Shown: positions 10,312 through 59,312 of the stretch, piece by piece
How positions within the stretch are numbered: position 1 is the first letter of the stretch
How the letters are laid out: each line of letters begins with the position of its first letter
Virus record (IMG/VR): IMGVR_UViG_3300037466_000868
DNA: 64,000 nucleotides
Origin: an uncultured virus (IMG/VR IMGVR_UViG_3300037466_000868)
Taxonomy: Duplodnaviria > Heunggongvirae > Uroviricota > Caudoviricetes
Reading direction: 5' to 3' (one strand)
Position numbers and translations under genes: made by a program
Notes under the pieces: model-generated
What the model was told of the DNA's origin: nothing
What the model saw: only the letters and a program-made list of their open reading frames with translations
The model's database searches: none

Positions 10312-10905
10312 ATGGCAAGCATTGGTAAGTTTAACGCAACTGAACACGACACTGAGCAACGCGACTACGAAAACCTCCCGGATGGCATTTATGCGTTGGA
10401 GGTTACGCAGTCGGAAGTCGCCGCCACCAGCAAGGGCGACGGCACCATCCTTAAATTGCGCTACGGTGTGATTGAGCCGGAAGAATACAAAGGCCGGTTG
10501 ATTTTCGGGAACATCACGCTCGAAAACCCGAACGCCCAGGCGCAGGAAATCGGCCAAAAGCAGCTTGCTTCACTGTGCCGCGCAATCGGCCTGTCTGAGA
10601 TCGAGGACAGCGAGGAGCTTCATTTCCAGCGTTTTGTTGGCAAGGTTGGCTTGTCGAAAGAGCGCAAGGTTGGCGACAAGGTGTATTCGCCGCGCAACGA
10701 GGTGAAGCGGTTCTATTTCCCCGACGCCGACGACATGCCGGAAATCGGCATCACGGCGCCGAAGGCTGCGAACGACAACGCGCGCGGTGCAGCACCCGCC
10801 AACGACAACCGGCCTGCGAGCGGTGACGCGCGCACGACTGGCAACGGTGGAGCGGCTGCATCTGCAGGCGGTAAGGCCCGCCCGTGGGGGAAGCGCGCGG
10901 CGTAG
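10312..10905 (+). CDS. DUF669 family putative single-stranded DNA-binding protein
   Basis: LPDGIY...G..L.L...V..PEEYKGR.IF...L..LCRAIG; PW near C-terminus. Confidence 0.85.
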   Translation: MASIGKFNATEHDTEQRDYENLPDGIYALEVTQSEVAATSKGDGTILKLRYGVIEPEEYKGRLIFGNITLENPNAQAQEIGQKQLASLCRAIGLSEIEDSEELHFQRFVGKVGLSKERKVGDKVYSPRNEVKRFYFPDADDMPEIGITAPKAANDNARGAAPANDNRPASGDARTTGNGGAAASAGGKARPWGKRAA

Positions 10906-10913
10906 GGCAACAC

Positions 10914-10942
10914 ACTACTGGTGCGCAGCGCGCACCAGTAGT
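10914..10942 (+). other. Perfect 13-bp hairpin (processing or stability element)
   Basis: ACTACTGGTGCGC-AGC-GCGCACCAGTAGT; no U tract. Confidence 0.6.
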
Positions 10943-10967
10943 TACCAACCCAACATTGGAGAACGAT

Positions 10968-11192
10968 ATGACGCGAGATGAGGCGCGACGGCGGGTGCGC
11001 GAGCGGCGTGTACTTGGCTTTAATGAGGGCGACAATCTGGTTGAGGCGTTGGAAGCGCTTGGACTGCTGAAACTGGAAGGGGCGGAGTCCGATAACGAGA
11101 AACTGAGCCGGGCCCTATCAATCCGTGGCGTTGACTCCGAACTGGTATTCGGAGCGATGGCGTCTGCCGGCCTCAAGGTTGTCCGCGCATGA
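10968..11192 (+). CDS. Hypothetical protein
   Basis: GGAG RBS, ATG 10968. Confidence 0.6.
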   Translation: MTRDEARRRVRERRVLGFNEGDNLVEALEALGLLKLEGAESDNEKLSRALSIRGVDSELVFGAMASAGLKVVRA

Positions 11193-11368
11193 TGATCGTC
11201 TACCACATCTACATTGATCGGGACGGCGTTGAAAAGTGGATCGCGCTTGGCTTGCTTGGCGATGAGCAGGCGCAACTGCTCGGGCAAGCCTTTCCCGATA
11301 TCACCCGAATTGAAACCTGGCTTGGGCACGAAGTTTACAAGGCCAAGCGCAAGCGGACGGTGCATTGA
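11189..11368 (+). CDS. Hypothetical protein (59 aa, not in the ORF track)
   Basis: MMIVYHIYIDRDG...TVH; coupled at both ends. Confidence 0.6.
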   Translation: MMIVYHIYIDRDGVEKWIALGLLGDEQAQLLGQAFPDITRIETWLGHEVYKAKRKRTVH

Positions 11369-11985
11369 TGACCGCAGCAAACGACAACTTCGTCCCATTC
11401 CAGAAGATTCCGCGCCTCAAGCGTGGCTGCATCATCACGGAGAAAATCGACGGCACCAACGCGCAGGTTGTGGTGCGCTCCACGGCCGAACTATCGCCGG
11501 CCGAGGATGTACCGTGGCATGCCAACGTCGTGGTGAAGGATGGCCAGTCGTGGATGGTTTCGGCCGGGTCGCGCACGCGCTGGATTTCACCAGACAACGA
11601 CAACTTCGGCTTTGCCGCATGGGTGAAGCAGAACGCCGAGCAACTGGTTGACCTTGGACCGGGCCAGCACTTTGGCGAATGGTGGGGCGTTGGCATCCAG
11701 CGCGGCTACGGCCTGCATGAGCGTCGGTTCTCGCTGTTTAACAGCGGACGGTGGTCTAGCGAACGGCCCGCGTGCTGCAGCGTTGTGCCGGTGCTCTACG
11801 CGGGCGATTTCACCACGGACACGGTCGACGAAGTGATGGACGTGCTCAAGGGCGCGGGCAGCCACGCAGCGCCAGGATTCATGAAGCCTGAAGGCTTGGT
11901 CGTGTTCATGACTGCGGCGCGGCACCTCTACAAGGTCCTCGCAGAGAATGATGAGTTGCCGAAGGGCGTGAAGGAGGCCGCATAA
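11368..11985 (+). CDS. Minimal RNA ligase-family nucleotidyltransferase (Rnl2-like core)
   Basis: EKIDGTN motif I; GEWWG; FSLFN; EGLVV motif IV; terminal K. Confidence 0.85.
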   Translation: MTAANDNFVPFQKIPRLKRGCIITEKIDGTNAQVVVRSTAELSPAEDVPWHANVVVKDGQSWMVSAGSRTRWISPDNDNFGFAAWVKQNAEQLVDLGPGQHFGEWWGVGIQRGYGLHERRFSLFNSGRWSSERPACCSVVPVLYAGDFTTDTVDEVMDVLKGAGSHAAPGFMKPEGLVVFMTAARHLYKVLAENDELPKGVKEAA

Positions 11986-12913: not shown

Positions 12914-12925
12914 GGAGCCCACCAC

Positions 12926-13975
12926 ATGCTCACCATCTCACGCGCCGATTTGGCGCGCACCCTTTCGCACGTCTCCAAAGTGGTGGAATCGCGCAACACC
13001 ATTCCTATCCTAGCCAACGTGCTGTTGCACGCCGGGGACGGCAAGCTGACCGTAACTGGTACGGATCTGGATATAAGCTACAGCGCCACGGCACCGTGCG
13101 ACGGCGAAATCAGCACAACCGTCGACGCCAAGCGTCTTAGTGACATCGCGCGCCGCCTGACTGGCGATACGGTGACGCTGGACCTCAAGGACGACAAACT
13201 TATCATCAAGTCCGGCCGGTCGCGGTTCACGCTGCCGACCTTGCCGGTTGAGAACTTCCCCAACCTTGACGCTGGCACGCCTGACGTCACCTTTAGCTTG
13301 GACTTCGCTGCGCTGGTTGCGCCGGTTAAATTCGCCATCTCGTCAGAACAAACGCGGTTCTACCTCTGCGGCGTCCACCTGCACAGCACTGCGGAAGGTG
13401 GCATTCGCGCTGTCGCAACGGACGGGCACCGGCTGGCGCACAACACCGCGTCAGGCATGCCCGCGATCCCGACCGTTATCATCCCCGCCAAGACGGTGGG
13501 TATTGTGCCGGCCGGCGTGGTGGGCGTCGGCCTATCGCAGAACAAGGTGCGGTTCGCAACGGCGGACACCATCATCGTGTCCAAGCTGATCGATGCGACG
13601 TTCCCGGACTATCAGCGCGTCATTCCGCAAGGCAACGACAAGACCGTGACGGTTGATCGCAAGGACCTGGCCAACGCCGTTGCGCGCGTGAGTGCGGTTG
13701 TCACCGAGCGCGGGCGCGCAGCAAAGTTTACGGTCGCGGGCGACAACATTGCTATCGACGTCAACGCAACAGACGGCACGGCGCACGAAGACGTTGAAGC
13801 AGAATACAGCGGCGAGCCTGTCGAGATTGGGTTCAACTGTAGCTACGCGACAGACGTGCTCGCGGCGATCCCCGGCGACGAGGTACGCATTAGCCTGGCC
13901 AGCGGTGAAACGCCTGCGATCTTCCAAGGTGACGGCTACGTGTTGGCGCTGTGCATGCCGATGCGGGTGATGTGA
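12926..13975 (+). CDS. dnaN: DNA polymerase III beta sliding clamp homologue
   Basis: RNTIPILANVLL; TRFYLCGV; VATDGHRLA; SKLIDATFPDYQRVIP; C-terminal MPMRV. Confidence 0.95.
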   Translation: MLTISRADLARTLSHVSKVVESRNTIPILANVLLHAGDGKLTVTGTDLDISYSATAPCDGEISTTVDAKRLSDIARRLTGDTVTLDLKDDKLIIKSGRSRFTLPTLPVENFPNLDAGTPDVTFSLDFAALVAPVKFAISSEQTRFYLCGVHLHSTAEGGIRAVATDGHRLAHNTASGMPAIPTVIIPAKTVGIVPAGVVGVGLSQNKVRFATADTIIVSKLIDATFPDYQRVIPQGNDKTVTVDRKDLANAVARVSAVVTERGRAAKFTVAGDNIAIDVNATDGTAHEDVEAEYSGEPVEIGFNCSYATDVLAAIPGDEVRISLASGETPAIFQGDGYVLALCMPMRVM

Positions 13976-14994: not shown

Positions 14995-14996
14995 CC

Positions 14997-15950
14997 GTGG
15001 CACCACTCCCCAAGCCAGGCTCTCCAACGGTCCGCGCCATCTATCGCGCCTACGAGGAAGCCAACAAGCATTACGACTCGCTGGGCATCAGCGTCGGCGA
15101 GATCGGAACCGAATGCGATCGCGCCCTCTGGTACAACCTGCGTTGGGCAAGCGCGCCTGAGCAAATCGACGGGCGCAAGTTGTCAATCTTCCGCACGGGC
15201 GACCGTTGGGAAGAAGTGATGGTGTCGGACCTTGAACGCATTGGCGTCGAGGTGTGGGGGCAGCAAGACAAGATCAGGCTTGTCGCGGGCCATGTTCGCG
15301 GGAAGCGTGACGGCGCGGCACTTGGGGTTCCCGAAGCGCCCAAGACGGAGCACTTGTGCGAATTCAAATCGAGCAACGATAAGGGATTCAAGGAGATCGT
15401 CAAGAAAGGTTGCAAGATTGCGAAGCCGCTGCATTACGGCCAGTGCCAGATTGGCATGGAGTATTTCGGGCTAACCCGCTGCTTGTACATGGTGACGAAC
15501 AAAAATGACGACGCGAGATACGTTGAAAGAATCCCGCACGACGCAGAATACTGCATCCGCCAACTCGCGCGGGCCGAGCGCATCATTAAATCGCCTGCGC
15601 CGCCTTCGCGCCTGTCGGATGATCCGGAGTTCTTCGGGTGCAGATTCTGCAAACACTATGACGTGTGCCACGGAAAGGCATGGCCGCGCATTACTTGCCG
15701 ATCCTGCCTCCACGCCACCCCAGAAATGACGGGTGATGCGCATTGGTCCTGCGCACGCTGGGCCAAGCCGTTGAGCGTTGAAGAGCAGAAGGCGGCGTGT
15801 CCTGCACATCTTTATGTACCGGGAATGGTTCCAGGTGCGCAAACGGACGCGGACGAAGATGCGGAGACTGTCACCTACACTCTGTGGAACGGCAAGACGT
15901 GGGTCGACGGCGCGGCGAACGATAACGAGAAGCAAGGAGAGGCGGCGTGA
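14997..15950 (+). CDS. Cas4-like PD-(D/E)XK exonuclease with Cys cluster
   Basis: C.RALWY; DG; EFKS; Q.Q..M; CRFC....C. Confidence 0.85.
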   Translation: MAPLPKPGSPTVRAIYRAYEEANKHYDSLGISVGEIGTECDRALWYNLRWASAPEQIDGRKLSIFRTGDRWEEVMVSDLERIGVEVWGQQDKIRLVAGHVRGKRDGAALGVPEAPKTEHLCEFKSSNDKGFKEIVKKGCKIAKPLHYGQCQIGMEYFGLTRCLYMVTNKNDDARYVERIPHDAEYCIRQLARAERIIKSPAPPSRLSDDPEFFGCRFCKHYDVCHGKAWPRITCRSCLHATPEMTGDAHWSCARWAKPLSVEEQKAACPAHLYVPGMVPGAQTDADEDAETVTYTLWNGKTWVDGAANDNEKQGEAA

Positions 15951-16894: not shown

Positions 16895-18045
16895 CTATGA
16901 CGTACACCCCCGCGCGCATCGAGCACATCGATGAAGTGTTGCCGCACGTTGAAGGCAGGCAAGACTTCGCCGTGCATCACAAGGAAGGCTATTCGGTTAT
17001 CGACTACCACTTCGCATTGCCGGACAGCTTTGACAACCCTTACCGTCTCGAATGCCGCGGACTCAAGTTCGGGACGGATGGGCGCGTCTTGGCGCGTCCG
17101 TTCCAAAAGTTCTTCAACGTCGGCGAGAGGCCGGACGCAACTGCGGAGAACCTAGACCTATCCCGCCCGCACACCGTCATGGAGAAGCTGGACGGCTCCA
17201 TGATCCATCCAGCCATTGTCAACGACGAAGTTGTGTTCATGACACGCATGGGCCGCACCGATGTGGCACGGAAGGCGGAGCGGCATTTGACGCCGAAAGT
17301 GGCAGAACAGTGTCGAACTTGGCTTGAGTGCAACGTTACGCCAATATTTGAGTTTACCGCACCAGACAACCGTATTGTGATTCAGTACCCGGAGTCTGGC
17401 CTTACCTTGCTTGCGCTGCGCGGGACGGTCACTGGCACTTATGCCTGGCACGCGACAACGGACGTAACTGCTGGCGCTATGGGCGTTTCCGCCGTCCCTA
17501 TCCACGAAATGTCAGACGACCCGAAATTGTTCCTGCACCACGCCCGCGCCGTCAAAGGCATGGAGGGATTCGTTATCCGCTTCGCGGACGGTTTCATGGT
17601 CAAGGCCAAGGGCGAGGACTACGTCCTAAAGCACAAAGCCAAGGAATCCGTTCTACAGGAAAAGAACGTGCTTGCGCTTATCGTTCGCGATGAGTTGGAC
17701 GATGTTCTTCCGCTACTGGACGCCGTCGACCGCGCCAACGTGGAGCGATATCGCAAAGATGTGCTGGCCGGTATCACGGAAGCCGAGGACATCCTTGCTC
17801 GCCTTGTGTCGTGCGGCAAAGACGCAGATCAGAAAACGTTCGCTACCGTGTTACTCGCTGACGTCATCCCACAAGTGCGGTCGCTGGCCTTTCAGGTGCG
17901 AGCCGGTGCCGTTCCACGCGACGCCATTATTGCTTCAATCATCAAATCGTCCACCAGCGCAAGCGGTGTCGACCATGTACGCCCGCTATTCGGCGCGAAG
18001 TTCCATGCGGCCAACGATAACGGGAGCGTGGCCAATGCAGCCTAA
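16891..18045 (+). CDS. T4 Rnl1-family RNA ligase
   Basis: ECRGL.F; RPFQKFFNVGE; EKLDGS; FEF; EGFVI; KAK. Confidence 0.92.
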   Translation: MTMTYTPARIEHIDEVLPHVEGRQDFAVHHKEGYSVIDYHFALPDSFDNPYRLECRGLKFGTDGRVLARPFQKFFNVGERPDATAENLDLSRPHTVMEKLDGSMIHPAIVNDEVVFMTRMGRTDVARKAERHLTPKVAEQCRTWLECNVTPIFEFTAPDNRIVIQYPESGLTLLALRGTVTGTYAWHATTDVTAGAMGVSAVPIHEMSDDPKLFLHHARAVKGMEGFVIRFADGFMVKAKGEDYVLKHKAKESVLQEKNVLALIVRDELDDVLPLLDAVDRANVERYRKDVLAGITEAEDILARLVSCGKDADQKTFATVLLADVIPQVRSLAFQVRAGAVPRDAIIASIIKSSTSASGVDHVRPLFGAKFHAANDNGSVANAA

Positions 18046-18634
18046 AGCAGCCAACGACAACACCCCACAGCCACAGCCCACCGCGCGCCCGGCATGGTTC
18101 GACGTGCGCCTAATGCAATACGAGCCTCTGATGCGCAACATGGCGTACAAGTATCGGGGCTGGCTTGACGCGGACGACGTCTACCAGGAGGCGGTTCTGA
18201 CCGTCCTGCGGCGGTGGGCGTCCTACCGCGGTGGCGCCGACTCGCCAGGGTTTGGCACGTGGCTTACCTACCAAGTGCGTGAGGCGGCACAGCGATGCCG
18301 CAGCGTAGACAGCAAGGAGCGGCACTTTGACTCGCTCGACGACGTCGACCGCGCAACGGCGTCTGCACCAAGCCATGAACTAAGCATCGACGCCGAGTTG
18401 ATGCTTAGGAAATGCTCGTCCGCACAGCGCGACGTCATCACCATGGCTGCGGCGGGCTATGACTATTCAGAGATTGGCTCTGCGCACGACGTAACCAAGC
18501 AGGCCGTGCAGTTGCGCATTATTGCCGGACGCAATCGCGTTCGTAGCGGGTTGCGACAAGCGAACGTCATTGCAGGTTTGGTAGCGATGCAGCGGGCGGC
18601 GAATGATAACGAGCCAAAGAAGCGGGCGGCGTGA
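18035..18634 (+). CDS. ECF-like sigma-70 family factor
   Basis: Region 2 (ADDVYQE...F.TWL) and region 4 HTH (YSEIG....VTKQAV). Confidence 0.85.
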   Translation: MQPKAANDNTPQPQPTARPAWFDVRLMQYEPLMRNMAYKYRGWLDADDVYQEAVLTVLRRWASYRGGADSPGFGTWLTYQVREAAQRCRSVDSKERHFDSLDDVDRATASAPSHELSIDAELMLRKCSSAQRDVITMAAAGYDYSEIGSAHDVTKQAVQLRIIAGRNRVRSGLRQANVIAGLVAMQRAANDNEPKKRAA

Positions 18635-18979: not shown

Positions 18980-20671
18980 ATGCTGCAGCTTAGGGATTAC
19001 CAACGCGCTGCGCTGGACGCATTATACGACTATTGGGACAAGGACGGAGGGTCGCCACTGCTTGTGCTGCCCACTGGCGCGGGCAAGTCGTTGGTGATTG
19101 CCACGCTGATGCAGGAATTGCTCGCAAACTACCCTGATATGCGCATCTTGAATGTTACGCATGTGCGGGAACTTTTAACGCAAAATTACAAGGAGCTAAT
19201 CGGAATCTGGCCGTTCGCGCCCGCGGGCTTGTTTAGCGCTGGCCTTGGGCAAGCGGATGCACATGCACAGATCATCTTCGGTGGGGTACAGACCATCGCC
19301 AATAAAACCAAGCGCATTGGCCATATCGACTTGGTTTTGGTCGACGAGGCGCACCTCGTCCCCCGCAAATCGGAGACGCAGTACGGCAAGTTGTTTGCCG
19401 GACTACGCGCTATCAATCCGGATATGCGGATTGCGGGTTTGACCGCTACGCCATTCCGACTTGGCGAAGGCATGTTGACGGACGGCGAGGGCGCGATGTT
19501 CGACGACATCGCGTTTGAAAAGCCCGTGGGCGAGCTTATAGACGAGGGTTACCTATGCCGCCCGGTATCGAAGGGAATGGACACAGCCTACGATCTGGAC
19601 GGTGTAGGCAAGGTTGGCGGCGACTACAACCAAGGCAAGCTACAGGCCGCCGTTGACAAGGAAGCGGTGACGCGGTCGGCAATCGACGAGGTTGTGAAGT
19701 ACGGCGCCAGCCGCAAGGCGTGGCTGCTGTTCTGTGCTGGGGTGCAACACGCTTACAATATGCGCGATGAAATCCGTTCGCGCGGCATCTCGTGCGAAAC
19801 CGTTGCAGGCGACACGCCTGCCTCAGAGCGGGACCGCATCCTTGCGGACTTCAAGGCCGGCAAGATACGCGCCGTTACCAACAATAGCGTGCTGACGACA
19901 GGGTTTAATCATCCCGGCGTGGATCTGTTGGCACTTTGCCGGCCGACTCTGTCGACAAGCCTGTACGTGCAAATGATCGGGCGCGGTTTGCGTAATGCAC
20001 CGGGTAAGGAAAACTGCCTTGTGCTGGACTTCGCAGGTTGCGTGCGTAAGCACGGGCCTATTGATTGCGTGCGCGTGAAGGAGCCGGGCAAGGGTGAAGG
20101 CGAGGCGCCAGTCAAGCAATGTCCCGAATGCGAGTCTCTGGTGCATGCGTCGGCTAAGGTATGTCCCGATTGCGGGCATGAGTTTCCGCCGAGCGAAGAA
20201 CCGAAACACGCCGCTCAAGCGGACATTACACCGGTATTAAGCACCGCCCCGCCCGTCTGGCACGCGGTGACGGGACGGACGTTTAGGGAGCACCCACCGA
20301 GGCCTGGCAAGCCGCCGAGCGTGCGCGTCGATTATAGGCTTGGCTTGAATGTGCAGCGTGATTTCCTGTGCCCTGCACATGGTGGCGGGGCGGCTGCGAA
20401 GGCTTGCCGGTACTGGCGGGACCACAAAGGTCGGCTACCCTATCCAAAAACTGTAACTGAATGGCTGGACAGGGCGGAAGAGCTTCACATCACAACAGAG
20501 ATAAGCACCGCACCAAGCAAGTCCAATCCGAAGTACATCAACGTAGTTGGCTGGCGCGCCGGCTCTACGCAAGTTGAGCCAGCCAACGACAATGCACCGC
20601 AGGCCGCCAACGACAATTGGAAGCCGCTGATGGCGGCGGGTGAGAGTTGGGACGAGGAGATACCGTTTTGA
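18980..20671 (+). CDS. SF2 helicase (RadD/YejH-like) with Zn finger
   Basis: LRDYQ; PTGAGKS; DEAH; TAT; QMIGRGLR; CPEC/CPDC. Confidence 0.93.
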   Translation: MLQLRDYQRAALDALYDYWDKDGGSPLLVLPTGAGKSLVIATLMQELLANYPDMRILNVTHVRELLTQNYKELIGIWPFAPAGLFSAGLGQADAHAQIIFGGVQTIANKTKRIGHIDLVLVDEAHLVPRKSETQYGKLFAGLRAINPDMRIAGLTATPFRLGEGMLTDGEGAMFDDIAFEKPVGELIDEGYLCRPVSKGMDTAYDLDGVGKVGGDYNQGKLQAAVDKEAVTRSAIDEVVKYGASRKAWLLFCAGVQHAYNMRDEIRSRGISCETVAGDTPASERDRILADFKAGKIRAVTNNSVLTTGFNHPGVDLLALCRPTLSTSLYVQMIGRGLRNAPGKENCLVLDFAGCVRKHGPIDCVRVKEPGKGEGEAPVKQCPECESLVHASAKVCPDCGHEFPPSEEPKHAAQADITPVLSTAPPVWHAVTGRTFREHPPRPGKPPSVRVDYRLGLNVQRDFLCPAHGGGAAAKACRYWRDHKGRLPYPKTVTEWLDRAEELHITTEISTAPSKSNPKYINVVGWRAGSTQVEPANDNAPQAANDNWKPLMAAGESWDEEIPF

Positions 20672-21648
20672 GCGACGATAATTGCCAACTGATACAAGGC
20701 GACTGCTTAGACGTGCTGCCGACGCTTTCGCCCGGCAGCGTGGATTTGATCCTGTGCGATTTACCGTATGGGACAATGGCGGGCGCGGCACTGGACGGAT
20801 GGAAGGATTCCGACACGTCGTGGGATGTGGCGATCGATCCAGATGTTCTGTTTCCGCAATACGAACGTCTGCTGCGGATGAACGGAGCTTGCATAGTTTT
20901 TAGTCAGGAACCGTACACATCGCGCTTAATCACAGAGGCCCATGGCAACCTGCCTTTTAGCTATCGCATGATGTGGTTTAAGGACCACTTCGCTAACGCC
21001 TTGGTCGCCAAGAAAGCGCCTGTTTCATATTTCGAGGACATCGTGGTGTTCTTTAAGAAGTATGACACTCTGGCCCAGCACCCGCTACGGGCATATTCAC
21101 TGTTGGTTCTTGGCCATTGCGGGGGAAATCTCAAGGCTATAAACGCTAGACTTGGTCACCGACGCGCTGAACATTTCTTCTATGTCGAGTCCACTCAGTT
21201 TGGACTATGCACCGAGGCAACTTACGATCAACTGTGCGCATCCTACGATATCAACATACAGCCGTGGTTCAAACCATACGCCGATCTAGTTGATATCGAC
21301 CGCCGCTTTTGCCGCCGCTTTAACCTGCCACCGGGACAAAAATACGTCTCCAACGTGCTGCAGTTCAAAAAAGACTACGACGGCTTTCATCCCACCCAAA
21401 AGCCCGTCGCATTGATGGAATACCTTATTCGTACCTACACCAACGAAGGCGACACCGTCCTCGACAACTGCATGGGCAGCGGCACCACAGGAGTCGCGGC
21501 CGTTAAAACAGGCCGCCGCTTCATCGGCATCGAGCGCGACGAGAATTACTTCTCCATTGCGCGCAAGCGCATTGGTGAAGCGGTGCCTGCAGCACAGCCC
21601 GTTGCGGCCAACGACAATCTACCCGCTGTGGATCTATTCGCAGCTTAA
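20668..21648 (+). CDS. DNA N6-adenine/N4-cytosine methyltransferase (beta class)
   Basis: DLPY; HPTQKP; NCMGSGTTG. Confidence 0.93.
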   Translation: MSDDNCQLIQGDCLDVLPTLSPGSVDLILCDLPYGTMAGAALDGWKDSDTSWDVAIDPDVLFPQYERLLRMNGACIVFSQEPYTSRLITEAHGNLPFSYRMMWFKDHFANALVAKKAPVSYFEDIVVFFKKYDTLAQHPLRAYSLLVLGHCGGNLKAINARLGHRRAEHFFYVESTQFGLCTEATYDQLCASYDINIQPWFKPYADLVDIDRRFCRRFNLPPGQKYVSNVLQFKKDYDGFHPTQKPVALMEYLIRTYTNEGDTVLDNCMGSGTTGVAAVKTGRRFIGIERDENYFSIARKRIGEAVPAAQPVAANDNLPAVDLFAA

Positions 21649-21719: not shown

Positions 21720-21950
21720 ATGAATAAACAGAGCAGACGCGCCAGCCTGACAGAGGCGGGCGCTAACGTGCTGATAGGCTATTGCGTAGCAATAGCTGCA
21801 CAAGTCGTCATCTTCCCTTTGTTCGGAATCTACATCGGCGCGGGTGAGCATGCCTTGATCGGGCTGCTGTTCACGCTTGTGTCGTTGGCGCGCAGCTACG
21901 TGCTGCGGCGCGTTTTTGAAACTTTGAGGGTGCGGGGGATTTTGGGGTGA
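21720..21950 (+). CDS. Small membrane protein
   Basis: Two hydrophobic helices; RSY.LRR.F; GGAG RBS. Confidence 0.75.
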   Translation: MNKQSRRASLTEAGANVLIGYCVAIAAQVVIFPLFGIYIGAGEHALIGLLFTLVSLARSYVLRRVFETLRVRGILG

Positions 21951-23401
21951 GCAACTATACCAAGCAACAATTCCTAGACGGCAAAGTCACGCTTTATGGT
22001 GGCGACAACCGCGACGTGCTGCGCGATCTGCCGGACAATAGCATTGATAGCATTGTCACGGATCCTCCGTATGCTCTTGTGAGCATCGTAAAGCGGTTTG
22101 GCGGCGCTCAAGCCAAACCAACTAAGGACGGCGACGTTTATTCGCGCGCTTCCAGCGGCTTCATGGGCAAGCAATGGGATACAGGCGAGGTAGCGTTTAG
22201 CGAGGTGTTCTGGGCCGAGTGCCTGCGCGTCCTTAAGCCCGGCGGCCACGTTGCGGCGTTCAGTGGAACGCGCACCTATCACCGCATGGCGTGTGCAATC
22301 GAGGACGCGGGCTTTGAAATTCGCGACCAGTTGGCTTGGTGCTACGGCAGCGGATTTCCGAAAAGTCATAACGTAGGAAAGGCTATCGACAAGCATCTAG
22401 GTGCCGAGCGCGATAAGGTGCGCGTTGACAATCCGCGCATTGCTAACATGCCTACCGCTAACACTGGCGCTGGTCGCCCGTGGCTGGATGCGGCGTTAGA
22501 GCGCGGCTATCACGAGAAGGCTGGCGACGAACCCGCCACTCCGCAGCCTGCGGAGTGGCGGGGCTGGGGCACCGCGCTCAAGCCAAGCTGGGAGCCAATC
22601 TGTCTCGCGCGCAAACCGCTTATCGGTACCGTAGCGCAGAACGTGCTGGAGCATGGCACGGGGGCGCTGAATATTGACGCAACGAGAGTTGGCGACGATG
22701 GAGGGACCGCCACTGTCGCTGGTGACCGTTACAACACCACAGTGCATGCATTTGGCGGCGGCCTTGGCGCTCAAGGTGGCTATATTGCGCAACTCGATAA
22801 GGGCCGCTGGCCCGCCAACATCGTGCACGATGGTAGCGAAGAGGTCGTGGCGTGTTTTCCGTCCGAAAGCGGCGGGGCCAAAATCGCAAAGGCAGGCAGC
22901 GCTAGTGGCGGCATATGGGGCGCGTCTACCGGCAAGCCGGCCGGGACGACCTATGCTGACTCCGGATCAGCCGCCCGTTTCTTCTACACCGCAAAAGCCG
23001 ACAAGCAAGACCGCATGGGCAGCAAGCACCCAACGGTTAAGCCAGTCGACTTGATGCAGTGGCTCTGCCGGTTGATTACGCGGCCAGGAGGCACGGTGCT
23101 CGATCCTTTCGCTGGCAGCGGCAGTACCGGAGAGGCAGCTTGGCGCGAAGGCTTTAGCGCCATCCTTTGCGAGCGCGAGGAAGAATATCAGACCGACATC
23201 GCCGAGCGCCTGCGGCTAGCAAGCGCCGGGCCGATGGAGCGTAAAGCGCGGGCAATTAAGCAGGTTGATACACTAGGGCCGTTGTTTGGCGACAACGACA
23301 ATACTCCGGCTGGGGGGGGGCAGACAGATATACGGAAAGTTCGCGGATCAATCGCCGGACTATCGGGCCAGTCGGACTCAAGTGGTGAAGCGGTAGCATG
23401 A
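21947..23401 (+). CDS. Second DNA N6/N4 methyltransferase (beta class)
   Basis: DPPY; HPTVKP; DPFAGSGST. Confidence 0.93.
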   Translation: MSNYTKQQFLDGKVTLYGGDNRDVLRDLPDNSIDSIVTDPPYALVSIVKRFGGAQAKPTKDGDVYSRASSGFMGKQWDTGEVAFSEVFWAECLRVLKPGGHVAAFSGTRTYHRMACAIEDAGFEIRDQLAWCYGSGFPKSHNVGKAIDKHLGAERDKVRVDNPRIANMPTANTGAGRPWLDAALERGYHEKAGDEPATPQPAEWRGWGTALKPSWEPICLARKPLIGTVAQNVLEHGTGALNIDATRVGDDGGTATVAGDRYNTTVHAFGGGLGAQGGYIAQLDKGRWPANIVHDGSEEVVACFPSESGGAKIAKAGSASGGIWGASTGKPAGTTYADSGSAARFFYTAKADKQDRMGSKHPTVKPVDLMQWLCRLITRPGGTVLDPFAGSGSTGEAAWREGFSAILCEREEEYQTDIAERLRLASAGPMERKARAIKQVDTLGPLFGDNDNTPAGGGQTDIRKVRGSIAGLSGQSDSSGEAVA

Positions 23402-28148: not shown

Positions 28149-28298
28149 CCGTAACCCAACCCCGCCTCGTTAGTGGCGGGTTCCATCTTTGCTCTACAGC
28201 GCCGCCGGTATGCCCACCGCGCGGCGTTTTTGCTGTGCGCCCGCCACCCGCCAATTTATTTTTATATCTCCCGCGACCAGCCCTCTTACTTGGGCGAC

Positions 28299-28745
28299 AT
28301 GGGATTCAAAACGACCAAACTTAAGAACGGCACGCGGGTGGTGCGGCGGACGGACACCGTGCCCGAATGGCGTTTACAAAGCGCACAGGTACGCGCCCTG
28401 CGCGCTATGCCGGAATTCGGGCGGCGGTTCACGCTGGCAGGCGACCAGAACGCGGCACGGCGTGGCGTGCAGACCGCCACCATTGCCAAGGCCACAGGTA
28501 TGACGCCGGGCGAACACGACTTACGCCTGTATCTCGAAGGCGGGCGGCTCGGCCTAATCGAAAACAAAACCGAGAAGGGCCGTCTAAGCCCCGAACAAAA
28601 GGACAGGCACGCGTTGTTGTATCGGCTGGGGTTCACATACCAGACCGTCATAAGGGCCGCCACGGAGGCCGACGCTGCCGCACAGGCGGTGTCTGTGGTG
28701 CGGGGGTGGCTGGCGGGGAATGATAATCAGAAAGTGGAGGGGTGA
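28299..28745 (+). CDS. VRR-NUC domain nuclease
   Basis: E..LQ; GM.PG..DL; IENK...GRLS.EQK. Confidence 0.85.
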   Translation: MGFKTTKLKNGTRVVRRTDTVPEWRLQSAQVRALRAMPEFGRRFTLAGDQNAARRGVQTATIAKATGMTPGEHDLRLYLEGGRLGLIENKTEKGRLSPEQKDRHALLYRLGFTYQTVIRAATEADAAAQAVSVVRGWLAGNDNQKVEG

Positions 28746-29289: not shown

Positions 29290-29807
29290 TGATCGCCGCT
29301 AACGATAACCACCGCGCAACGCCGCCTGTCGTGACGTCATTGCGCCGATCGAGGGACTTTAAGACTCTGGATAGCGTTCGGAAGTGGATGCATCACGACG
29401 GCGAGCCGATTACCGCGGCAAATGACAACAGCCTGCCGGATGGCTTCCAGATCGAATGTTACATGGAGTCCATGAGTGCGGAGGAGCTTATCGCGGCGTA
29501 TGGGGCTGGCACTTACCACGTCGGAATGCACGAGGAGAAGTTTCGGCGTCCGCGAGGCCCCAAGACGGCGATGCCGGTAGCAGAGCACGAGGATGCACAA
29601 GGTGAGATGACGAGATATCTAGATCGTGAGGAATTGCGCCGCACGCTCGGCGATAATGCGGTTGTGCTGGATATGGCTTGTGATGGAAGCACGTATCGGG
29701 AAATTGGCGAATATCTTGGTTTTGAAGGCTCAACCGACACCAAGGAGCGTGCCGGTAAGCGGGCAGTAAAGGAGGCGGCTAAATTATTTTGGGAGATTGC
29801 GGCCTGA
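29289..29807 (+). CDS. Putative late transcriptional regulator (C-terminal sigma4-like HTH)
   Basis: VLDMA..G.TYREIG..LG; last early gene before the late region. Confidence 0.55.
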   Translation: MIAANDNHRATPPVVTSLRRSRDFKTLDSVRKWMHHDGEPITAANDNSLPDGFQIECYMESMSAEELIAAYGAGTYHVGMHEEKFRRPRGPKTAMPVAEHEDAQGEMTRYLDREELRRTLGDNAVVLDMACDGSTYREIGEYLGFEGSTDTKERAGKRAVKEAAKLFWEIAA

Positions 29808-37016: not shown

Positions 37017-37412
37017 ATGCTAATTCGCGCACTTAAGACGACGACCGGCCGCCCAAAAGGCACTGTTCACGAAGTGGACGACTCTACCGGTAAAGAACTT
37101 GTGGCCATGGGCTACGCTGTCGAGGAGTTGCCGCTTGCTAAACAGGAGGCCGCGCCTGTCGCCGCGAATGACAACCGCCCTTTAGCTGCGGGCGACGACC
37201 AGACTGGTTCCCCGACTGGCGCGGATGCACCGCAGTCATCGTCGCAGGCGGACCAAGTGCTGCTACAGCAGGAGTTGAGCGGGCCAGAGGCCGCGCAAGA
37301 GTCCTCTCCATCAACAACGGATATAAACTCGCCACATGGGCAGATGTCCTCTATGCCTGCGACCACGACTGGTGGAAAGCGCAAGCGGGGGCGCCCGAGT
37401 TCAAAGGGCTAA
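37017..37412 (+). CDS. Small post-capsid protein (zero-frame product) with low-complexity tail
   Basis: G...EV....G..LV..GYA domain, then an S/T/Q-rich tail. Confidence 0.75.
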   Translation: MLIRALKTTTGRPKGTVHEVDDSTGKELVAMGYAVEELPLAKQEAAPVAANDNRPLAAGDDQTGSPTGADAPQSSSQADQVLLQQELSGPEAAQESSPSTTDINSPHGQMSSMPATTTGGKRKRGRPSSKG

Positions 37413-57072: not shown

Positions 57073-57341
57073 AGTACACTGTAACTGCCGCTGCGCTAGT
57101 GGCGGGCCTGATGCTTGCCGGTTGCCAGCCTCCCGGCACCACCTCCGGCCAGTTGCCCACCGTCCCGGCCGATATTCAGGCGTGCTTCCGGCAAGGCCCG
57201 GTGAAGGTGCCGCCCAAGGCCCTGACCGTGGCCGAGGTTGAGTCCCTCTGGAAACAGGACCGGGTTCGCTCGGCCGTCATGCATGCTTGCGGGCAGCGCT
57301 TCTTAGCCTGGTACGGCGATCTGCAGAAGAGGTGGCGGTGA
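57069..57341 (+). CDS. Putative o-spanin lipoprotein
   Basis: Lipobox LAGC; Pro-rich. Confidence 0.75.
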   Translation: MKYTVTAAALVAGLMLAGCQPPGTTSGQLPTVPADIQACFRQGPVKVPPKALTVAEVESLWKQDRVRSAVMHACGQRFLAWYGDLQKRWR

Positions 57342-57532
57342 TGACGCCACAGACAGAGGAGGCGATGTCTCGCATTCGCGCCTGTAAGACTTACGAAGAA
57401 AGGCAGGCGATGGCGCGGCAAATCTACAAAGAGCGAAACCCACCCCTTACGGCATTCGATAAATTCATGAATTTCGCGGTGTTTTTCGGCCCCATCGTTA
57501 TCGGTGTGGCCATCGCTTTGGTGATTTTGTGA
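57341..57532 (+). CDS. Small membrane protein
   Basis: C-terminal TM; coupled. Confidence 0.6.
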   Translation: MTPQTEEAMSRIRACKTYEERQAMARQIYKERNPPLTAFDKFMNFAVFFGPIVIGVAIALVIL

Positions 57533-57822
57533 TGGGTGTCTTTGAATGGGGCGCCGTAGCCGCCCTGGTGGCCGTGGGCGGCATTGTCTGGAGGCTGGCG
57601 TGGCGGCTATCCTCCAACACGGAACGCATCACGGCGGCGGAAACCTTGGCTACGGCGGCATCCGCGCGGACTGTAGAACTGACTCGCGCGCTTGCCGAGC
57701 ACAAGGAACACGTCGCAGCAGAATATGTGAGCCGTGGGGCGTTGAAGGAGATTACCGACGCGATCAACCGGTTGGGTGATCGGCTCGATAATCTTTTCAT
57801 CCACATGATGCCCAAGCCATGA
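57532..57822 (+). CDS. Membrane-anchored coiled-coil protein
   Basis: N-terminal TM; HVA.EYV...RLD. Confidence 0.7.
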   Translation: MGVFEWGAVAALVAVGGIVWRLAWRLSSNTERITAAETLATAASARTVELTRALAEHKEHVAAEYVSRGALKEITDAINRLGDRLDNLFIHMMPKP

Positions 57823-57952
57823 TCGAGACCGCGCTGGAAGTCGCCATGGCGCTGGGCGCACTGGCCCTGTTCGCCATGGCTTTAGGGCTGGCCTTGGACA
57901 ACCACGCGGCGCGGTTGGACCCTAGCACGCCATATTATGTCGCAGCGCAAAA

Positions 57953-57979
57953 GGCCCCGTAAGTCGGGGCCAAATTTTT
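57953..57979 (+). terminator. Rho-independent terminator
   Basis: GGCCCCG-N5-CGGGGCC followed by AAATTTTT. Confidence 0.65.
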
Positions 57980-58037
57980 CTATAGCTGTTGCGTTTTGCC
58001 GCCTTAGCTATCTGCGTATTCCAACCAATGAGGCCAC

Positions 58038-59312
58038 ATGCCTACTCCTCCGGTATCAAACGAAGACCTTGCGGCCACGGTAGCCGCCTATGAGGCCAGC
58101 GGGCGCAATCAATCCGCCACGGCCAGGGTGCTAGGGTTGGCGCGGGAAACCGTGCAGTCGCGGCTTAGGCGGGCCTCTGAGCGGGGTCTGCTGCTGGGGC
58201 ATCCGGCGGCGATGCCGGGGTTTGCCATAAAGAGCGTAGCGGCCAAGGTTGGCGATGCTTGGGTTAAGCAAACCAAGGAACCGGGCGAGGTCTACGCGCC
58301 GATTGAGGGACACGCCATCAAGGGCGAGTCCGCTCTGGTGGATGCCGAAGGGCGCGTTATCCAGAAGTGGATTAAAACCAAAGAGGACGCCGACGACACG
58401 ATTGCGCTATCCGCCGCAATCCATGACGAGTTTTCGCAATACAAGGGGTACGCCAAACTAGTGCGCCCGCCGAAGGAAACCTACGCCGACCTCTGCAACT
58501 ACTACCCTGTCGTCGATCCGCACATTGGGATGCTTTCTAACGGCAAGGAGACCGGCGAATCCAACGACTTGAAGATTGGCGTTAGTCGCGTCGGCGGGAC
58601 ATTGCAGCGGCTTATCGGGGACTCACCTCCCGCAGACACTGGCGTAATCATCAACACCGGAGACTTCTTCCACGCAGACGATCAGCGCAACGTCACGCCA
58701 GCATCAAACCATCAACTTGACGTTGATGGACGCAGCCACAAAGTCAAGTGGGCCGGAATTAACATGCTGCGCACCACGATTGATCTGGCCCTACAGCGGC
58801 ACAAGAGGGTTATCGTCAAAAACCTGAAGGGCAACCACGACCCGGAATCAGCCATGTGGCTGAATATTTCTCTTGGGTTGTTCTACTCAAATGAAGAGCG
58901 CGTCGAGATCGACACGGAAGACGCGAATAATGATCACTTCTTCCATCTGTTCGGCGTGAACTATACCGGGGCCACGCACGGTCACACGATGAAGCCTGAC
59001 CGCATGTATGTGATGATGGCGGAAGATAACCCTGAATACTGGAATGCGTCGCTCTACCGTTGGTGCATCTTCGGCCACATTCATCACGAGACGAAGAAGC
59101 AGATCGGCTCGCTAATATGCGAGTCATTCAGCCAGCCTGTGCCGCGCGATTCATTCGCTCACAGCCACGGTTATAGGTCGGGCAGCGCCATGCAGTCGGT
59201 GACGCTGCATAAGCAGGACGGCGAAAGCGGGCGGGTTATCAAACGCTTCCCGCCGTCGCGTGGGTTGCCGGTTGCGGCGAATGATAATGAGCAAAAGCGG
59301 AGGGCGGCGTGA
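58038..59312 (+). CDS. HTH plus calcineurin-like metallophosphoesterase
   Basis: N-terminal HTH; DPH, GD, GNHD, HGH and GHIH motifs. Confidence 0.88.
   Translation: MPTPPVSNEDLAATVAAYEASGRNQSATARVLGLARETVQSRLRRASERGLLLGHPAAMPGFAIKSVAAKVGDAWVKQTKEPGEVYAPIEGHAIKGESALVDAEGRVIQKWIKTKEDADDTIALSAAIHDEFSQYKGYAKLVRPPKETYADLCNYYPVVDPHIGMLSNGKETGESNDLKIGVSRVGGTLQRLIGDSPPADTGVIINTGDFFHADDQRNVTPASNHQLDVDGRSHKVKWAGINMLRTTIDLALQRHKRVIVKNLKGNHDPESAMWLNISLGLFYSNEERVEIDTEDANNDHFFHLFGVNYTGATHGHTMKPDRMYVMMAEDNPEYWNASLYRWCIFGHIHHETKKQIGSLICESFSQPVPRDSFAHSHGYRSGSAMQSVTLHKQDGESGRVIKRFPPSRGLPVAANDNEQKRRAA

What the first reader, a model, noticed from the sequence alone, without database searches (positions are those of the whole stretch)
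10765..59312. Genome-wide hard-coded tmRNA (ssrA)-like tags: 12 AANDN motifs in 10 unrelated phage proteins
Seen: exact AANDN occurs in SSB (10765), small RNA ligase (11374, AANDNF), Cas4-like nuclease (15912), Rnl1 (18007), sigma factor (18047, 18596), helicase (~20603), MTase 1 (21604), the 29289 regulator (29295, 29415), the post-capsid protein (37161) and the metallophosphoesterase (59274). Variants PANDN (twice), AGNDN and GDNDN also occur. Five proteins end in a full tag-like sequence: AANDNEKQGEAA*, AANDNGSVANAA*, AANDNEPKKRAA*, AANDNLPAVDLFAA*, AANDNEQKRRAA*. Codons vary (GCG/GCC/GCA/GCT, AAC/AAT, GAC/GAT), so selection appears to act on the peptide. Known: the Caulobacter ssrA tag is AANDNFAEEFAVAA; its N-terminal part binds the SspB adaptor and the terminal AA is recognised by ClpX. 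Inference: the phage programs protein turnover through host SspB/ClpXP, and the N-terminal or internal copies may tether or titrate SspB.
Basis: partly seen in the sequence, partly recalled or inferred. Interest (0 to 1): 0.88.

Follow-up and report, generated by a model that had tools for sequence, protein, structure and literature searches.

The report
Phage proteins copy host ssrA tag
A temperate phage of Rhizobium-type bacteria has written the first five residues of its hosts' "destroy-me" (tmRNA/ssrA) tag, usually together with the tag's Ala-Ala ending, into the floppy ends of ten unrelated non-virion proteins, which probably hands their lifetime to the host SspB-ClpXP protease, although no binding or degradation has been measured.

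Summary
AANDN occurs 12 times in the reading frame of 10 genes, where 0.02 is expected, and it is by far the most over-represented peptide word of this proteome. Selection is on the peptide: third codon positions vary only within the synonymous sets. In IMG/VR, AANDN-x5-AA-stop gave at least 123 loci, the wobble variant AANDK-x5-AA-stop gave 0, and the scramble AADNN gave 2.

The copies lie outside the catalytic domains, in N- or C-terminal tails. One tail was modelled and is unstructured. Eight of 10 carriers end in Ala-Ala against 13 of 90 non-carriers. The motif equals the head of the Agrobacterium and Caulobacter tmRNA tags.

Sinorhizobium phage NV1.1.1 and 13 of 17 metagenomic relatives show the same pattern, and the motif comes and goes like an indel on orthologous tails.

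The most likely reading is a portable short linear motif that recruits host SspB, with a weak Ala-Ala ClpX degron. SspB binding is inferred only, and the single complex prediction gave no verdict. Part of the Ala-Ala excess comes from overlap with the next gene's ribosome site and start codon.

This scan has already reported the same phenomenon on at least seven other genomes. I found no paper describing it. The nearest published case is the ssrA-like tag on the mycobacteriophage BPs repressor.

The parts
10765..10809 (+). AANDN (10765-10779) and PANDN (10795-10809) in the C-terminal tail of the DUF669/SSB-like protein (gene 10312-10905, ends KRAA)
   Evidence: The Pfam DUF669 domain covers residues 15-126 of 197, so the motifs at 152-166 lie outside it. 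The tail is conserved in orthologues.
11374..11388 (+). AANDN(F) at residues 3-7 of the small RNA ligase (gene 11368-11985, ends KEAA)
   Evidence: The Pfam RNA_ligase domain covers residues 22-179 of 205.
15912..15950 (+). Full tag-like C-terminus AANDNEKQGEAA-stop of the Cas4-domain exonuclease (gene 14997-15950). The last codons overlap the GGAG ribosome site and GTG start of the next gene.
   Evidence: phrog_1990 covers residues 8-279 of 317. In the AF2 model the last strand is 301-304 and residues 308-317 have pLDDT below 50. The motif is present or absent like an indel among orthologues.
18007..18045 (+). Full tag-like C-terminus AANDNGSVANAA-stop of Rnl1-type RNA ligase (gene 16897-18045)
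   Evidence: Pfam RNA_lig_T4_1 covers residues 52-252 of 382. Orthologues in L015 and L006 keep AANDN.
18047..18061 (+). AANDN at residues 5-9 of the sigma factor (gene 18035-18634, overlapping the Rnl1 end by 11 bases)
   Evidence: Sigma70_r2 covers residues 27-85 of 199. The N-terminal M-x-P-A-N-D-N is kept in 10 of 11 relatives listed.
18596..18634 (+). Full tag-like C-terminus AANDNEPKKRAA-stop of the same sigma factor
20579..20617 (+). PANDN (20579-20593) and AANDN (20603-20617) in the helicase tail (gene 18980-20671, ends WDEEIPF and not AA)
   Evidence: The Pfam domains end by residue 404 of 563. Orthologues keep NDNWKPL, but the residue before NDN varies among A, G, S and D.
21604..21648 (+). 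Tag-like C-terminus AANDNLPAVDLFAA-stop of DNA methyltransferase 1 (gene 20668-21648); 71 bases to the next called gene
   Evidence: N6_N4_Mtase covers residues 25-299 of 326. Relatives end ANDN..[QS]ADLF..AA.
29295..29429 (+). Two AANDN copies (29295-29309 and 29415-29429) near the N-terminus of an unknown protein (gene 29289-29807, ends EIAA)
   Evidence: No Pfam or PHROG hit. Orthologues in L004 and L020 carry both copies.
37161..37175 (+). AANDN in a low-complexity protein just after the capsid gene (gene 37017-37412, does not end in AA). This is the only copy inside the virion block.
   Evidence: No Pfam or PHROG hit.
59274..59312 (+). Full tag-like C-terminus AANDNEQKRRAA-stop of the DNA-repair exonuclease/metallophosphoesterase-like protein (gene 58038-59312). 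It overlaps the GGAGG site and GTG start of the next gene.
   Evidence: phrog_704 covers residues 15-402 of 424. The NV1.1.1 orthologue ends AANDNVPVEQKRVA.
23288..23302 (+). Variant GDNDN in the tail of methyltransferase 2 (gene 21947-23401)
   Evidence: The L007 orthologue keeps it.
28713..28727 (+). Variant AGNDN eight residues from the C-terminus of gene 28173-28745; relatives read AANDN here
   Evidence: L012, L014, L004 and L020 read W-L-A-A-N-D-N at the same place.
4859..4873 (-). 13th DNA-level copy, antisense to gene 4391-5584. Not in a called gene, probably chance.

Best explanation
[A/P]-A-N-D-N is a short linear peptide motif that this phage lineage places in unstructured N- or C-terminal tails and linkers of unrelated, mostly non-virion proteins. 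These include SSB, two RNA ligases, a Cas4 exonuclease, a sigma factor, a helicase, a methyltransferase and a repair exonuclease.

The motif copies the head of the host's tmRNA (ssrA) tag, which is the part read by the adaptor SspB. Most carriers also end in Ala-Ala, the part read by ClpX. That Ala-Ala usually follows a polar residue, so it is probably a weak degron on its own.

Proposed mechanism: host SspB binds the ANDN head and tethers the protein to ClpX, which then engages the Ala-Ala end and feeds the protein to ClpP. This would make the carriers short-lived in an adaptor-dependent way. It could act as a timer for early and middle functions, or as a clean-up of leaky lytic proteins in lysogens.

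Shown here: the enrichment, the peptide-level selection, the placement in tails, the link with Ala-Ala, the identity to published tag heads, and the recurrence in relatives and across viral contigs. Inferred: SspB binding, ClpXP degradation and the biological purpose.
For: - **Enrichment.** 11 AANDN against 0.018 expected; it is the top k-mer outlier. At DNA level there are 13 matches against 0.04.
- **Peptide, not DNA, within the window.** Third positions vary exactly within the synonymous sets. Twelve of 13 DNA matches are in the frame of a called gene; P = 1.7e-5 if a co-oriented DNA site fell in frames at random.
- **Peptide, not DNA, elsewhere.** In NV1.1.1 the 3 minus-strand copies lie in annotated minus-strand genes. 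AANDK, which differs by one wobble base, gave 0, and the scramble AADNN gave 2 loci with 1 distinct peptide.
- **Tail placement.** All 8 carriers with a Pfam or PHROG domain have the motif outside the domain. The AF2 model of the Cas4 exonuclease has pLDDT below 50 for residues 308-317, after the last strand at 301-304. Of 105 non-identical contexts, 22 are N-terminal, 62 C-terminal and 21 internal.
- **Link to Ala-Ala.** Window: 8 of 10 carriers against 13 of 90 non-carriers, P = 3.8e-5. Eleven sources pooled: 50 of 86 against 81 of 373, odds ratio 5, P = 1.3e-10. The spacer is 5 residues (10 cases) or 7 (7 cases) and never under 5.
- **Match to native tags.** The A. tumefaciens tag is ANDNNAKEYALAA (Table 1 of PMC12493166). 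With the Ala that tmRNA itself adds, both begin AANDN and have a 7-residue spacer.
- **Published modularity of the tag.** The tag has an SspB-binding motif plus ClpX-bound C-terminal residues. The DAS+4 design shows that a weak C-terminus plus an SspB site gives adaptor-dependent degradation (review PMC8138137, passages). Terminal Ala-Ala is the dominant ClpXP determinant but is not sufficient when polar residues precede it (bioRxiv 10.1101/2024.01.29.576913, sections 15-16). In Caulobacter a hard-coded ssrA tag destabilised a protein, and deleting sspB slowed this (PMC9393093, passage).
- **Other native heads.** AANDD (35 loci) and AANDE (15 loci) are also above the scramble control.
- **Distribution in the genome.** 11 of 12 copies lie outside the virion block, which holds 38% of residues; P = 0.026.
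Against: - No binding or degradation was measured or successfully modelled.
- The host and its SspB were not identified here. PF04386 was seen only in the tool's control genomes E. coli and Caulobacter.
- The motif has an extended consensus of its own that native tags lack: Pro two residues after ANDN in 48 of 105 contexts and Pro three residues before in 28 of 105. This could point to another receptor.
- 36 of 86 carriers, and 23 of 54 tail motifs, do not end in Ala-Ala. The helicase ends in IPF instead.
- Helicase orthologues keep NDN but vary the preceding residue among A, G, S and D.
- Part of the Ala-Ala signal is a coding constraint. 13 of the 21 Ala-Ala enders in the window abut or overlap the next start. 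76 of 110 IMG/VR sites have an NTGA overlap. Glu, from the GGAG site, is the commonest residue before Ala-Ala, in 35 of 131 cases.
- 4 of 28 virion proteins, including the portal and tail tube, also end in Ala-Ala.
- One of 13 DNA-level copies is not in a gene frame.
Confidence: 0.55

Rival explanations
1. The motif binds SspB, but its main purpose is not to destroy the carrier. The many copies would act as decoys that saturate SspB and so reprogramme host ClpXP or trans-translation quality control. Alternatively, dimeric SspB would serve as a scaffold that brings phage DNA and RNA enzymes together.
For: Some carriers lack Ala-Ala (2 of 10 in the window, 36 of 86 pooled). Several proteins carry two copies: SSB, helicase, sigma factor and gene 29289. 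Most carriers are nucleic-acid enzymes that could work together.
Against: Ala-Ala is strongly tied to carriers (odds ratio 5). The spacer never falls below 5 residues. Both points fit delivery to ClpX better than pure titration. No abundance data exist.
Confidence: 0.12
2. The motif docks onto a hub other than SspB, and the resemblance to the tag head is coincidental or secondary. Candidates are the phage's own beta sliding clamp (12926-13975), a host replisome or RNA polymerase component, or an unrecognised phage protein.
For: The extended consensus P-x-[A/P]-A-N-D-N-x-P is not that of native tags. Carriers are mostly DNA and RNA enzymes, and the phage encodes a clamp. The tails also hold other docking-type motifs: an SSB-tip-like D-[IV]-P-F on the helicase and a clamp-motif-like [QS]-A-D-L-F on the methyltransferases.
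Against: The top outlier pentapeptide is exactly identical to the tag head. It is tied to C-terminal Ala-Ala at a tag-like distance. In six-frame translations of L004, L005 and L014, an AANDN directly precedes a sequence resembling the clamp's N-terminus, although my gene calls start the clamp downstream of it. Carriers include a sigma factor and RNA ligases. Pfam found no adaptor-like phage protein among the 98 window proteins scanned. The heads AANDD and AANDE of other native tags are also enriched.
Confidence: 0.2
3. The repeat is a DNA or RNA element that merely happens to translate as AANDN. It could be a protein-binding site, a gene-boundary recombination linker or an RNA signal.
For: Copies cluster at gene ends, where boundary sequences would lie. 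One copy sits in a non-coding frame on the minus strand.
Against: Only 10 of 15 bases are fixed, and the variable ones are exactly the synonymous positions. Twelve of 13 copies are in the gene's frame. Copies follow gene orientation in NV1.1.1. AAY to AAR at one wobble base takes the IMG/VR count from at least 123 to 0.
Confidence: 0.02
4. It is a by-product of composition, translational coupling or shared ancestry of the tails.
For: Ala-Ala endings often overlap the next gene's ribosome site and start. Control phages of similar GC content already show 6-15% Ala-Ala endings.
Against: Composition-preserving shuffles give 0.02 copies. The composition-matched scramble, with the same Ala-Ala-stop requirement, gave 2 loci against at least 123. 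N-terminal and internal copies cannot come from coupling. Carriers belong to different Pfam and PHROG families. Spacers are diverse, with 99 distinct peptides among 123 loci.
Confidence: 0.03

Closest known systems
Native tmRNA (ssrA) tag read by SspB and ClpXP, alphaproteobacterial version
   Same: The head is identical: AANDN, counting the Ala that tmRNA itself adds. The Ala-Ala C-terminus is the same. The spacer is similar in length: 5-7 residues here against 7 in the A. tumefaciens tag (PMC12493166 Table 1) and in the Caulobacter tag. Both sit on an unstructured end.
   Different: Here the sequence is written in the gene, not added by trans-translation. It is also used at N-termini and in linkers, far from the Ala-Ala end. 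The middle of the tag is not copied. Pro is frequent two residues after the head. The residue before Ala-Ala is usually polar rather than Leu or Val.
Hard-coded ssrA-like C-terminal tags of mycobacteriophage BPs repressor gp33 and integrase (integration-dependent immunity; PMC4557955, abstract and passages read)
   Same: A temperate phage encodes a tag-like C-terminus that makes its own protein unstable, and an Ala substitution near the end stabilises it.
   Different: BPs tags one or two regulators, and integration removes the tag. Only the extreme C-terminal degron is copied. That actinobacteria lack SspB, so no adaptor-binding head is involved, is my recollection. Here ten or more enzymes carry the adaptor-binding head, and the repressor and integrase of this phage carry no tag.
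Engineered DAS+4 adaptor-dependent degron (McGinness et al. 2006, as described in review PMC8138137, passages read)
   Same: The logic is the same: a weakened ClpX-binding end plus an intact SspB-binding head, separated by extra spacer, giving degradation that depends on SspB.
   Different: DAS+4 is man-made, whereas this would be a natural counterpart. Adaptor dependence is not shown here.
RseA(1-108), a natural SspB-delivered ClpXP substrate ending in VAA (PMC8138137 Table 1)
   Same: It is a genome-encoded protein with an Ala-Ala end and a separate SspB-binding stretch.
   Different: It is a host protein whose degron is exposed by cleavage, and its SspB-binding sequence is unrelated to the tag head.

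Membership tests
tmRNA (ssrA) tag | Added co-translationally by tmRNA to stalled chains | tested here: not met
   The sequences are in frame inside ordinary genes that end at their own stop codons. ARAGORN found no tmRNA gene in the window.
tmRNA (ssrA) tag | Head identical to the host tag's N-terminal (adaptor-binding) residues | tested here: met
   AANDN was compared with the published A. tumefaciens tag and the Caulobacter tag string. The window's own host tag could not be fetched.
tmRNA (ssrA) tag | C-terminal Ala-Ala with free carboxylate | tested here: met
   8 of 10 carriers end in AA, 5 of them with ANDN 5-7 residues upstream. 2 of 10 do not.
SspB substrate | Binds the substrate-binding domain of SspB | not testable with these tools
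   No alphaproteobacterial SspB sequence was obtainable. The one complex job, with a stand-in, gave no verdict.
ClpXP substrate | ClpX- and ClpP-dependent instability in vivo or in vitro | not testable with these tools
   Needs experiments.
Short linear motif (SLiM) | Short, in a disordered region, recurring in unrelated proteins, gained and lost on orthologues | tested here: met
   The motif lies outside the domain in 8 of 8 carriers with a domain hit. pLDDT is below 50 in the one tail modelled. The carriers belong to 10 proteins of different families. In Cas4 orthologues the motif is present in 7 of 17 listed rows, independent of overall identity.
BPs-type integration-dependent ssrA-like tag | Tag on the repressor or integrase, removed by integration within the gene | tested here: not met
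   The repressor (3324-4049) and integrase (62507-63547) end in TAQ and AQR and carry no ANDN.

The most novel reading that the evidence does not exclude
Phages of proteobacteria use a portable, host-matched 'adaptor code'. They hard-code the SspB-binding head of the host's tmRNA tag (ANDN in alphaproteobacterial hosts, possibly ANDD and ANDE elsewhere) as a movable five-residue cassette on protein ends. Combined with a deliberately weak Ala-Ala degron, this puts whole sets of non-virion proteins under adaptor-gated ClpXP control. That would be a natural counterpart of the engineered DAS+4 degron and the first proteome-scale degron mimicry described in a bacterial virus. It would serve as a developmental timer or as a safety catch for lysogeny.
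Probability: 0.35. Interest if true: 0.85.

Novelty: new variant of a known kind. Interest (0 to 1): 0.72.

Why it matters
If the tails really bind SspB, protein turnover by a host adaptor would be a designed layer of phage gene regulation affecting a tenth or more of the proteome, not one or two regulators. It would supply natural, short, adaptor-dependent degrons for alphaproteobacteria such as rhizobia and Caulobacter. It would also show host-motif mimicry of the eukaryotic-virus kind in phages. It predicts that sspB and clpX are host factors shaping burst size or lysogeny frequency. Finally, the motif gives a simple sequence signature: at least 123 IMG/VR loci for one fixed spacing alone.

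Tried and rejected
**Complex prediction.** I sent E. coli SspB residues 1-120 (a Swiss-Prot reference, used as a stand-in) with the last 40 residues of the exonuclease. The verdict was 'no answer' (scores 0.10 and 0.11 against a mark of 0.34), and the controls were not run. This is neither for nor against binding.

**Getting an alphaproteobacterial SspB or the host's own tag.**
- No whole genome is held for the window.
- The single genome-contig scan, using the helicase, found only a 38%-identical relative in an Isosphaeraceae MAG.
- The Caulobacter SspB references were not held.
- Lessner et al. 2007 (PMC1797230) is not in the library.
- I did not see the Chien et al. 2007 structure paper. 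Which tag residues alphaproteobacterial SspB contacts is therefore not documented here.

**Relatives.** Megablast of the early region against the phage collection found nothing. The closest named relative, NV1.1.1, was found by the more sensitive blastn at 69% identity.

**DNA-level element or gene-boundary recombination linker.** Rejected on wobble variation, frame and the AANDK control.

**Ala-Ala as a pure coupling artefact.** Rejected as the whole explanation: 8 of 47 uncoupled genes still end in AA, and the link with ANDN is strong. It is kept as a partial explanation.

**Phage-encoded receptor.** Pfam found no SspB-, ClpX- or adaptor-like domain in the 98 proteins scanned.

**Minus-strand copy at 4859.** It sits in a 151-codon open frame with no canonical start, antisense to a PHROG-supported gene, so I treat it as chance.

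**Literature.** Nine searches found no paper on ANDN or SspB-head motifs encoded in phage proteins.

**Rows left out.** The pooled test dropped the near-duplicate loci L005, L012, L013 and L016. My gene caller produced nothing for L019, which has 39% GC.

Full report
**What the window is.** The 64-kb window is essentially a temperate tailed-phage genome. It holds:
- an S24/HTH repressor (3324-4049, minus strand) and a tyrosine integrase (62507-63547, minus strand);
- a long plus-strand early block (AAA_24, DUF669/SSB, Gp157, beta clamp, PNKP, two RNA ligases, sigma factor, helicase, two methyltransferases, primase-polymerase);
- a structural block from 31021 to 54363;
- lysis genes.

Its closest named relative is Sinorhizobium phage NV1.1.1, at 69% nucleotide identity over the terminase-capsid genes. 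The terminase also matches Rhizobium phages. No whole genome is held for the window, and the window has no tRNA or tmRNA gene.

- The degenerate DNA pattern has 13 matches, against a mean of 0.04 in 100 dinucleotide shuffles.
- In my 100 called proteins (19,059 residues), AANDN occurs 11 times against 0.018 expected, ANDN 13 against 0.15 and NDN 17 against 1.3.
- No other 3-, 4- or 5-mer comes close, and 2000 within-protein shuffles never gave more than one AANDN.
- The twelfth copy (29295) lies just upstream of the start my caller picked. Orthologues in L004 and L020 carry both copies, so the gene most likely starts at the GTG at 29289.
- The variants PANDN (twice), AGNDN and GDNDN, and the five full tag-like C-termini, are as quoted.

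**It is a peptide signal, not a DNA signal.**
- At the twelve sites both Ala codons use all four third bases, while the Asn and Asp codons vary only between C and T. That is exactly the synonymous sets.
- Twelve of 13 DNA-level copies are in the frame of a called gene. P is 1.7e-5 even if a site co-oriented with transcription fell in frames at random.
- The thirteenth copy (4859-4873, minus strand) is antisense to a PHROG-supported gene and has no canonical start upstream. I treat it as chance.
- In NV1.1.1, three of the 20 ANDN copies are on the minus strand, and each lies in an annotated minus-strand gene near its N- or C-terminus.

The strongest control came from scans of 2.9 million IMG/VR contigs with a fixed x5 spacer, Ala-Ala and a TAA/TGA stop:

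| Head | Loci found | Distinct peptides |
|---|---|---|
| AADNN (composition-matched scramble) | 2 | 1 |
| AANDK (one wobble base different) | 0 | 0 |

Of 110 distinct AANDN sites, 106 have an open frame over the 20 upstream codons.

**Where the motif sits.**
- In all eight carriers with a Pfam or PHROG domain, the motif lies outside the domain, in an N- or C-terminal extension.
- An AlphaFold2 model of the Cas4-domain exonuclease was built from 12 orthologues (mean pLDDT 76). It ends its last strand at residues 301-304, and residues 308-317, which hold the tag, have pLDDT below 50.
- Across 105 non-identical ANDN contexts from the window, NV1.1.1 and the metagenomic relatives, 22 are within the first 25 residues, 62 within the last 40, and 21 are internal.
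- The wider consensus is P-x-[A 60 / P 31]-A-N-D-N-x-[P 48].
- In the window, 11 of 12 copies lie outside the virion block, which holds 38% of the residues (P = 0.026).

**The Ala-Ala ending.**
- 21 of 100 proteins end in Ala-Ala, where 1.4 is expected from composition.
- 8 of 10 ANDN carriers do so, against 13 of 90 non-carriers (P = 3.8e-5).
- Pooled over 11 ANDN-positive sources (459 distinct proteins; near-duplicate loci L005, L012, L013 and L016 dropped), the figures are 50 of 86 against 81 of 373 (odds ratio 5, P = 1.3e-10).
- 12 of 19 carriers with an N-terminal motif also end in Ala-Ala.
- Of 54 motifs within the last 30 residues, 31 are followed by a terminal Ala-Ala. The spacer is most often 5 (10 cases) or 7 (7 cases) residues and never under 5.

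This signal is not clean:
- 13 of the 21 Ala-Ala enders abut or overlap the next gene's start.
- 76 of 110 IMG/VR sites have an NTGA overlap.
- The commonest residue before Ala-Ala is Glu, from the GGAG ribosome site (35 of 131).
- Control phages show 6-15% Ala-Ala endings: RHph_Y3_1 7 of 56, Shpa 4 of 60, L003 2 of 32 and L008 2 of 13.
- On the other side, 8 of 47 uncoupled genes in the window still end in Ala-Ala, and the scramble control carried the same Ala-Ala-stop requirement.

**Relatives.**
- The helicase found 17 IMG/VR loci. Thirteen carry 3-15 ANDN copies per 10-22 kb, always on the coding strand.
- Four viral loci (L008, L009, L010, L019) and the only genome hit, an Isosphaeraceae MAG (L003), carry none.
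- Pseudomonas phage PMG1, which shares the capsid type, has none. Paracoccus phage Shpa has none. Rhizobium phage RHph_Y3_1 has two.
- On orthologous tails the motif behaves like an indel. Cas4 exonucleases read W-[VT]-D-G-[AANDN]-x5-7-AA in 7 of the 17 rows listed (window, NV1.1.1, L006, L011, L013, L015 among them). They read W-V-D-G-x-x-K-x-x-x-AA, without the motif, in closer relatives such as L020 (79% identical) and L017.
- This pattern suggests repeated gain or loss, but I built no tree.

**What it most likely is.**
- The top outlier pentapeptide equals the start of alphaproteobacterial tmRNA tags once the Ala carried by tmRNA is counted.
- The A. tumefaciens tag is listed in Table 1 of PMC12493166.
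- S. meliloti is reported to have a 12-residue tag (PMC10117765, passages), but its letters were not in the text I saw.
[quoted passage not shown] It says SspB is found in certain proteobacteria, including Caulobacter. It also describes the DAS+4 design, in which a weakened end plus an intact SspB site gives strictly adaptor-dependent degradation.
- Beardslee and Schmitz (bioRxiv 10.1101/2024.01.29.576913, sections 15 and 16) found terminal Ala-Ala in 91% of their top 100 degrons. It was not sufficient: tags with Gly, Ser, Pro, His or short polar residues before it were poor.
- The phage endings are mostly of that poor kind (E, R, K, N or G before Ala-Ala).
- In Caulobacter a hard-coded ssrA tag made a protein so unstable that sspB had to be deleted (PMC9393093, passage).

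Put together, the best reading is a natural adaptor-dependent degron. The ANDN head tethers the protein to SspB, and the weak Ala-Ala end is then engaged by ClpX. Every step after the sequence resemblance is inference.

**A first look at host matching.** With the same spacing and ending, the heads of other native tags were also above the scramble: AANDD gave 35 loci (22 distinct peptides) and AANDE gave 15 (12 distinct). According to PMC12493166 Table 1, P. aeruginosa uses ANDD and E. coli uses ANDE. Asp and Glu are commoner than Asn, so some of this excess is composition. I ran only one scramble and one wobble control, and the hosts of the contigs are unknown.

**What speaks against the reading, or is open.**
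- No binding was measured. The one complex prediction, with an E. coli SspB stand-in, returned no verdict and counts for nothing.
- I could not obtain an alphaproteobacterial SspB or the host's own tag.
- The frequent Pro two residues after the head and three before it is foreign to native tags.
- Helicase orthologues keep NDN but vary the preceding residue.
- 36 of 86 carriers lack Ala-Ala.
- A different receptor therefore remains possible. The phage's own beta clamp is the obvious candidate, since most carriers are DNA enzymes.
- Against the clamp: the exact identity to the tag head, the Ala-Ala link, carriers such as the sigma factor and RNA ligases, and an AANDN directly upstream of the clamp-like N-terminus in six-frame translations of L004, L005 and L014. 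My gene calls start those clamps downstream of that motif, so this last point is weak.

**Novelty.**
- Hard-coded ssrA-like C-terminal tags are published for single phage regulators: the mycobacteriophage BPs repressor and integrase (PMC4557955, abstract and passages).
- I found nothing in nine literature searches on phage proteins that carry the adaptor-binding head, or that do so across many proteins.
- Supplements were closed and most subscription journals are not held.
- Earlier agents of this scan reported the same motif on at least seven other genomes. Those are unchecked notes, not independent evidence.
- This window adds another clear case, the wobble and scramble controls across IMG/VR, the indel-like behaviour on orthologues, and the quantified coupling confound.

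Noticed in passing
window 20650-20671 (helicase C-terminus); also L003, L008 and other helicase orthologues: The helicase ends in W-D-E-E-I-P-F. An acidic D/E-[IV]-P-F tip is kept in 17 of the 20 helicase rows listed, including the ANDN-free L008 and the Isosphaeraceae relative. From memory it resembles the C-terminal tip of bacterial SSB, which would suggest docking onto SSB-binding partners. The small DUF6511 protein (23398-23769) also ends R-E-V-P-F.
   Followed up: partly
window 21619-21648 and 12926-13975; L011-L018 methyltransferase tails: Methyltransferase tails end in [QS]-A-D-L-F-(x0-2)-A-A in relatives and A-V-D-L-F-A-A in the window. From memory this resembles the bacterial beta-clamp-binding motif. 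The phage encodes its own beta clamp with all three Pfam domains. A clamp-tethered phage DNA methyltransferase would be worth testing.
   Followed up: no
window 11368-11985, 15947-16894, 16897-18045: An RNA repair set: polynucleotide kinase-phosphatase (HAD_PNKP plus AAA_33), an Rnl1-type ligase and a second small RNA ligase. This is the T4-style kit for healing cleaved tRNAs, here in a temperate rhizobiophage.
   Followed up: no
window 4859-4873 (minus strand): A 13th exact DNA-level copy of the AANDN pattern lies codon-for-codon antisense to gene 4391-5584. It sits in a 151-codon open frame with no ATG, GTG or TTG upstream of it. About 0.04 such copies are expected by chance per window.
   Followed up: partly
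window 10870-10905 and SSB orthologues in L004-L018: DUF669/SSB-like proteins share a conserved extreme C-terminus, S/A-R-P-W-G-K/R-K/R-(A-A), downstream of the ANDN motif. ANDN-free relatives keep R-P-W-G or K-P-W. The E. coli RseA(1-108) degron listed in PMC8138137 Table 1 also contains R-P-W. This may be coincidence.
   Followed up: no
window 54386-55693 (minus strand) and 2208-2618 (minus strand): An EpsG-family membrane protein, which is O-antigen/exopolysaccharide polymerase-like and a likely lysogenic-conversion gene, sits between the tail and lysis genes. A ProQ/FinO-family RNA-binding protein sits in the leftward operon.
   Followed up: no
L008:1973-2533: In the ANDN-free relative L008, the SSB tail reads P-A-N-T-N where the others read P-A-N-D-N. 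If its host's tag head differs in the same way, this would be a natural co-variation test.
   Followed up: no
IMG/VR loci L149-L198: C-termini of the form AANDD-x5-AA (35 loci) and AANDE-x5-AA (15 loci) are more frequent than the scramble control (2 loci). This hints that phages of other proteobacteria hard-code their hosts' tag heads too.
   Followed up: partly
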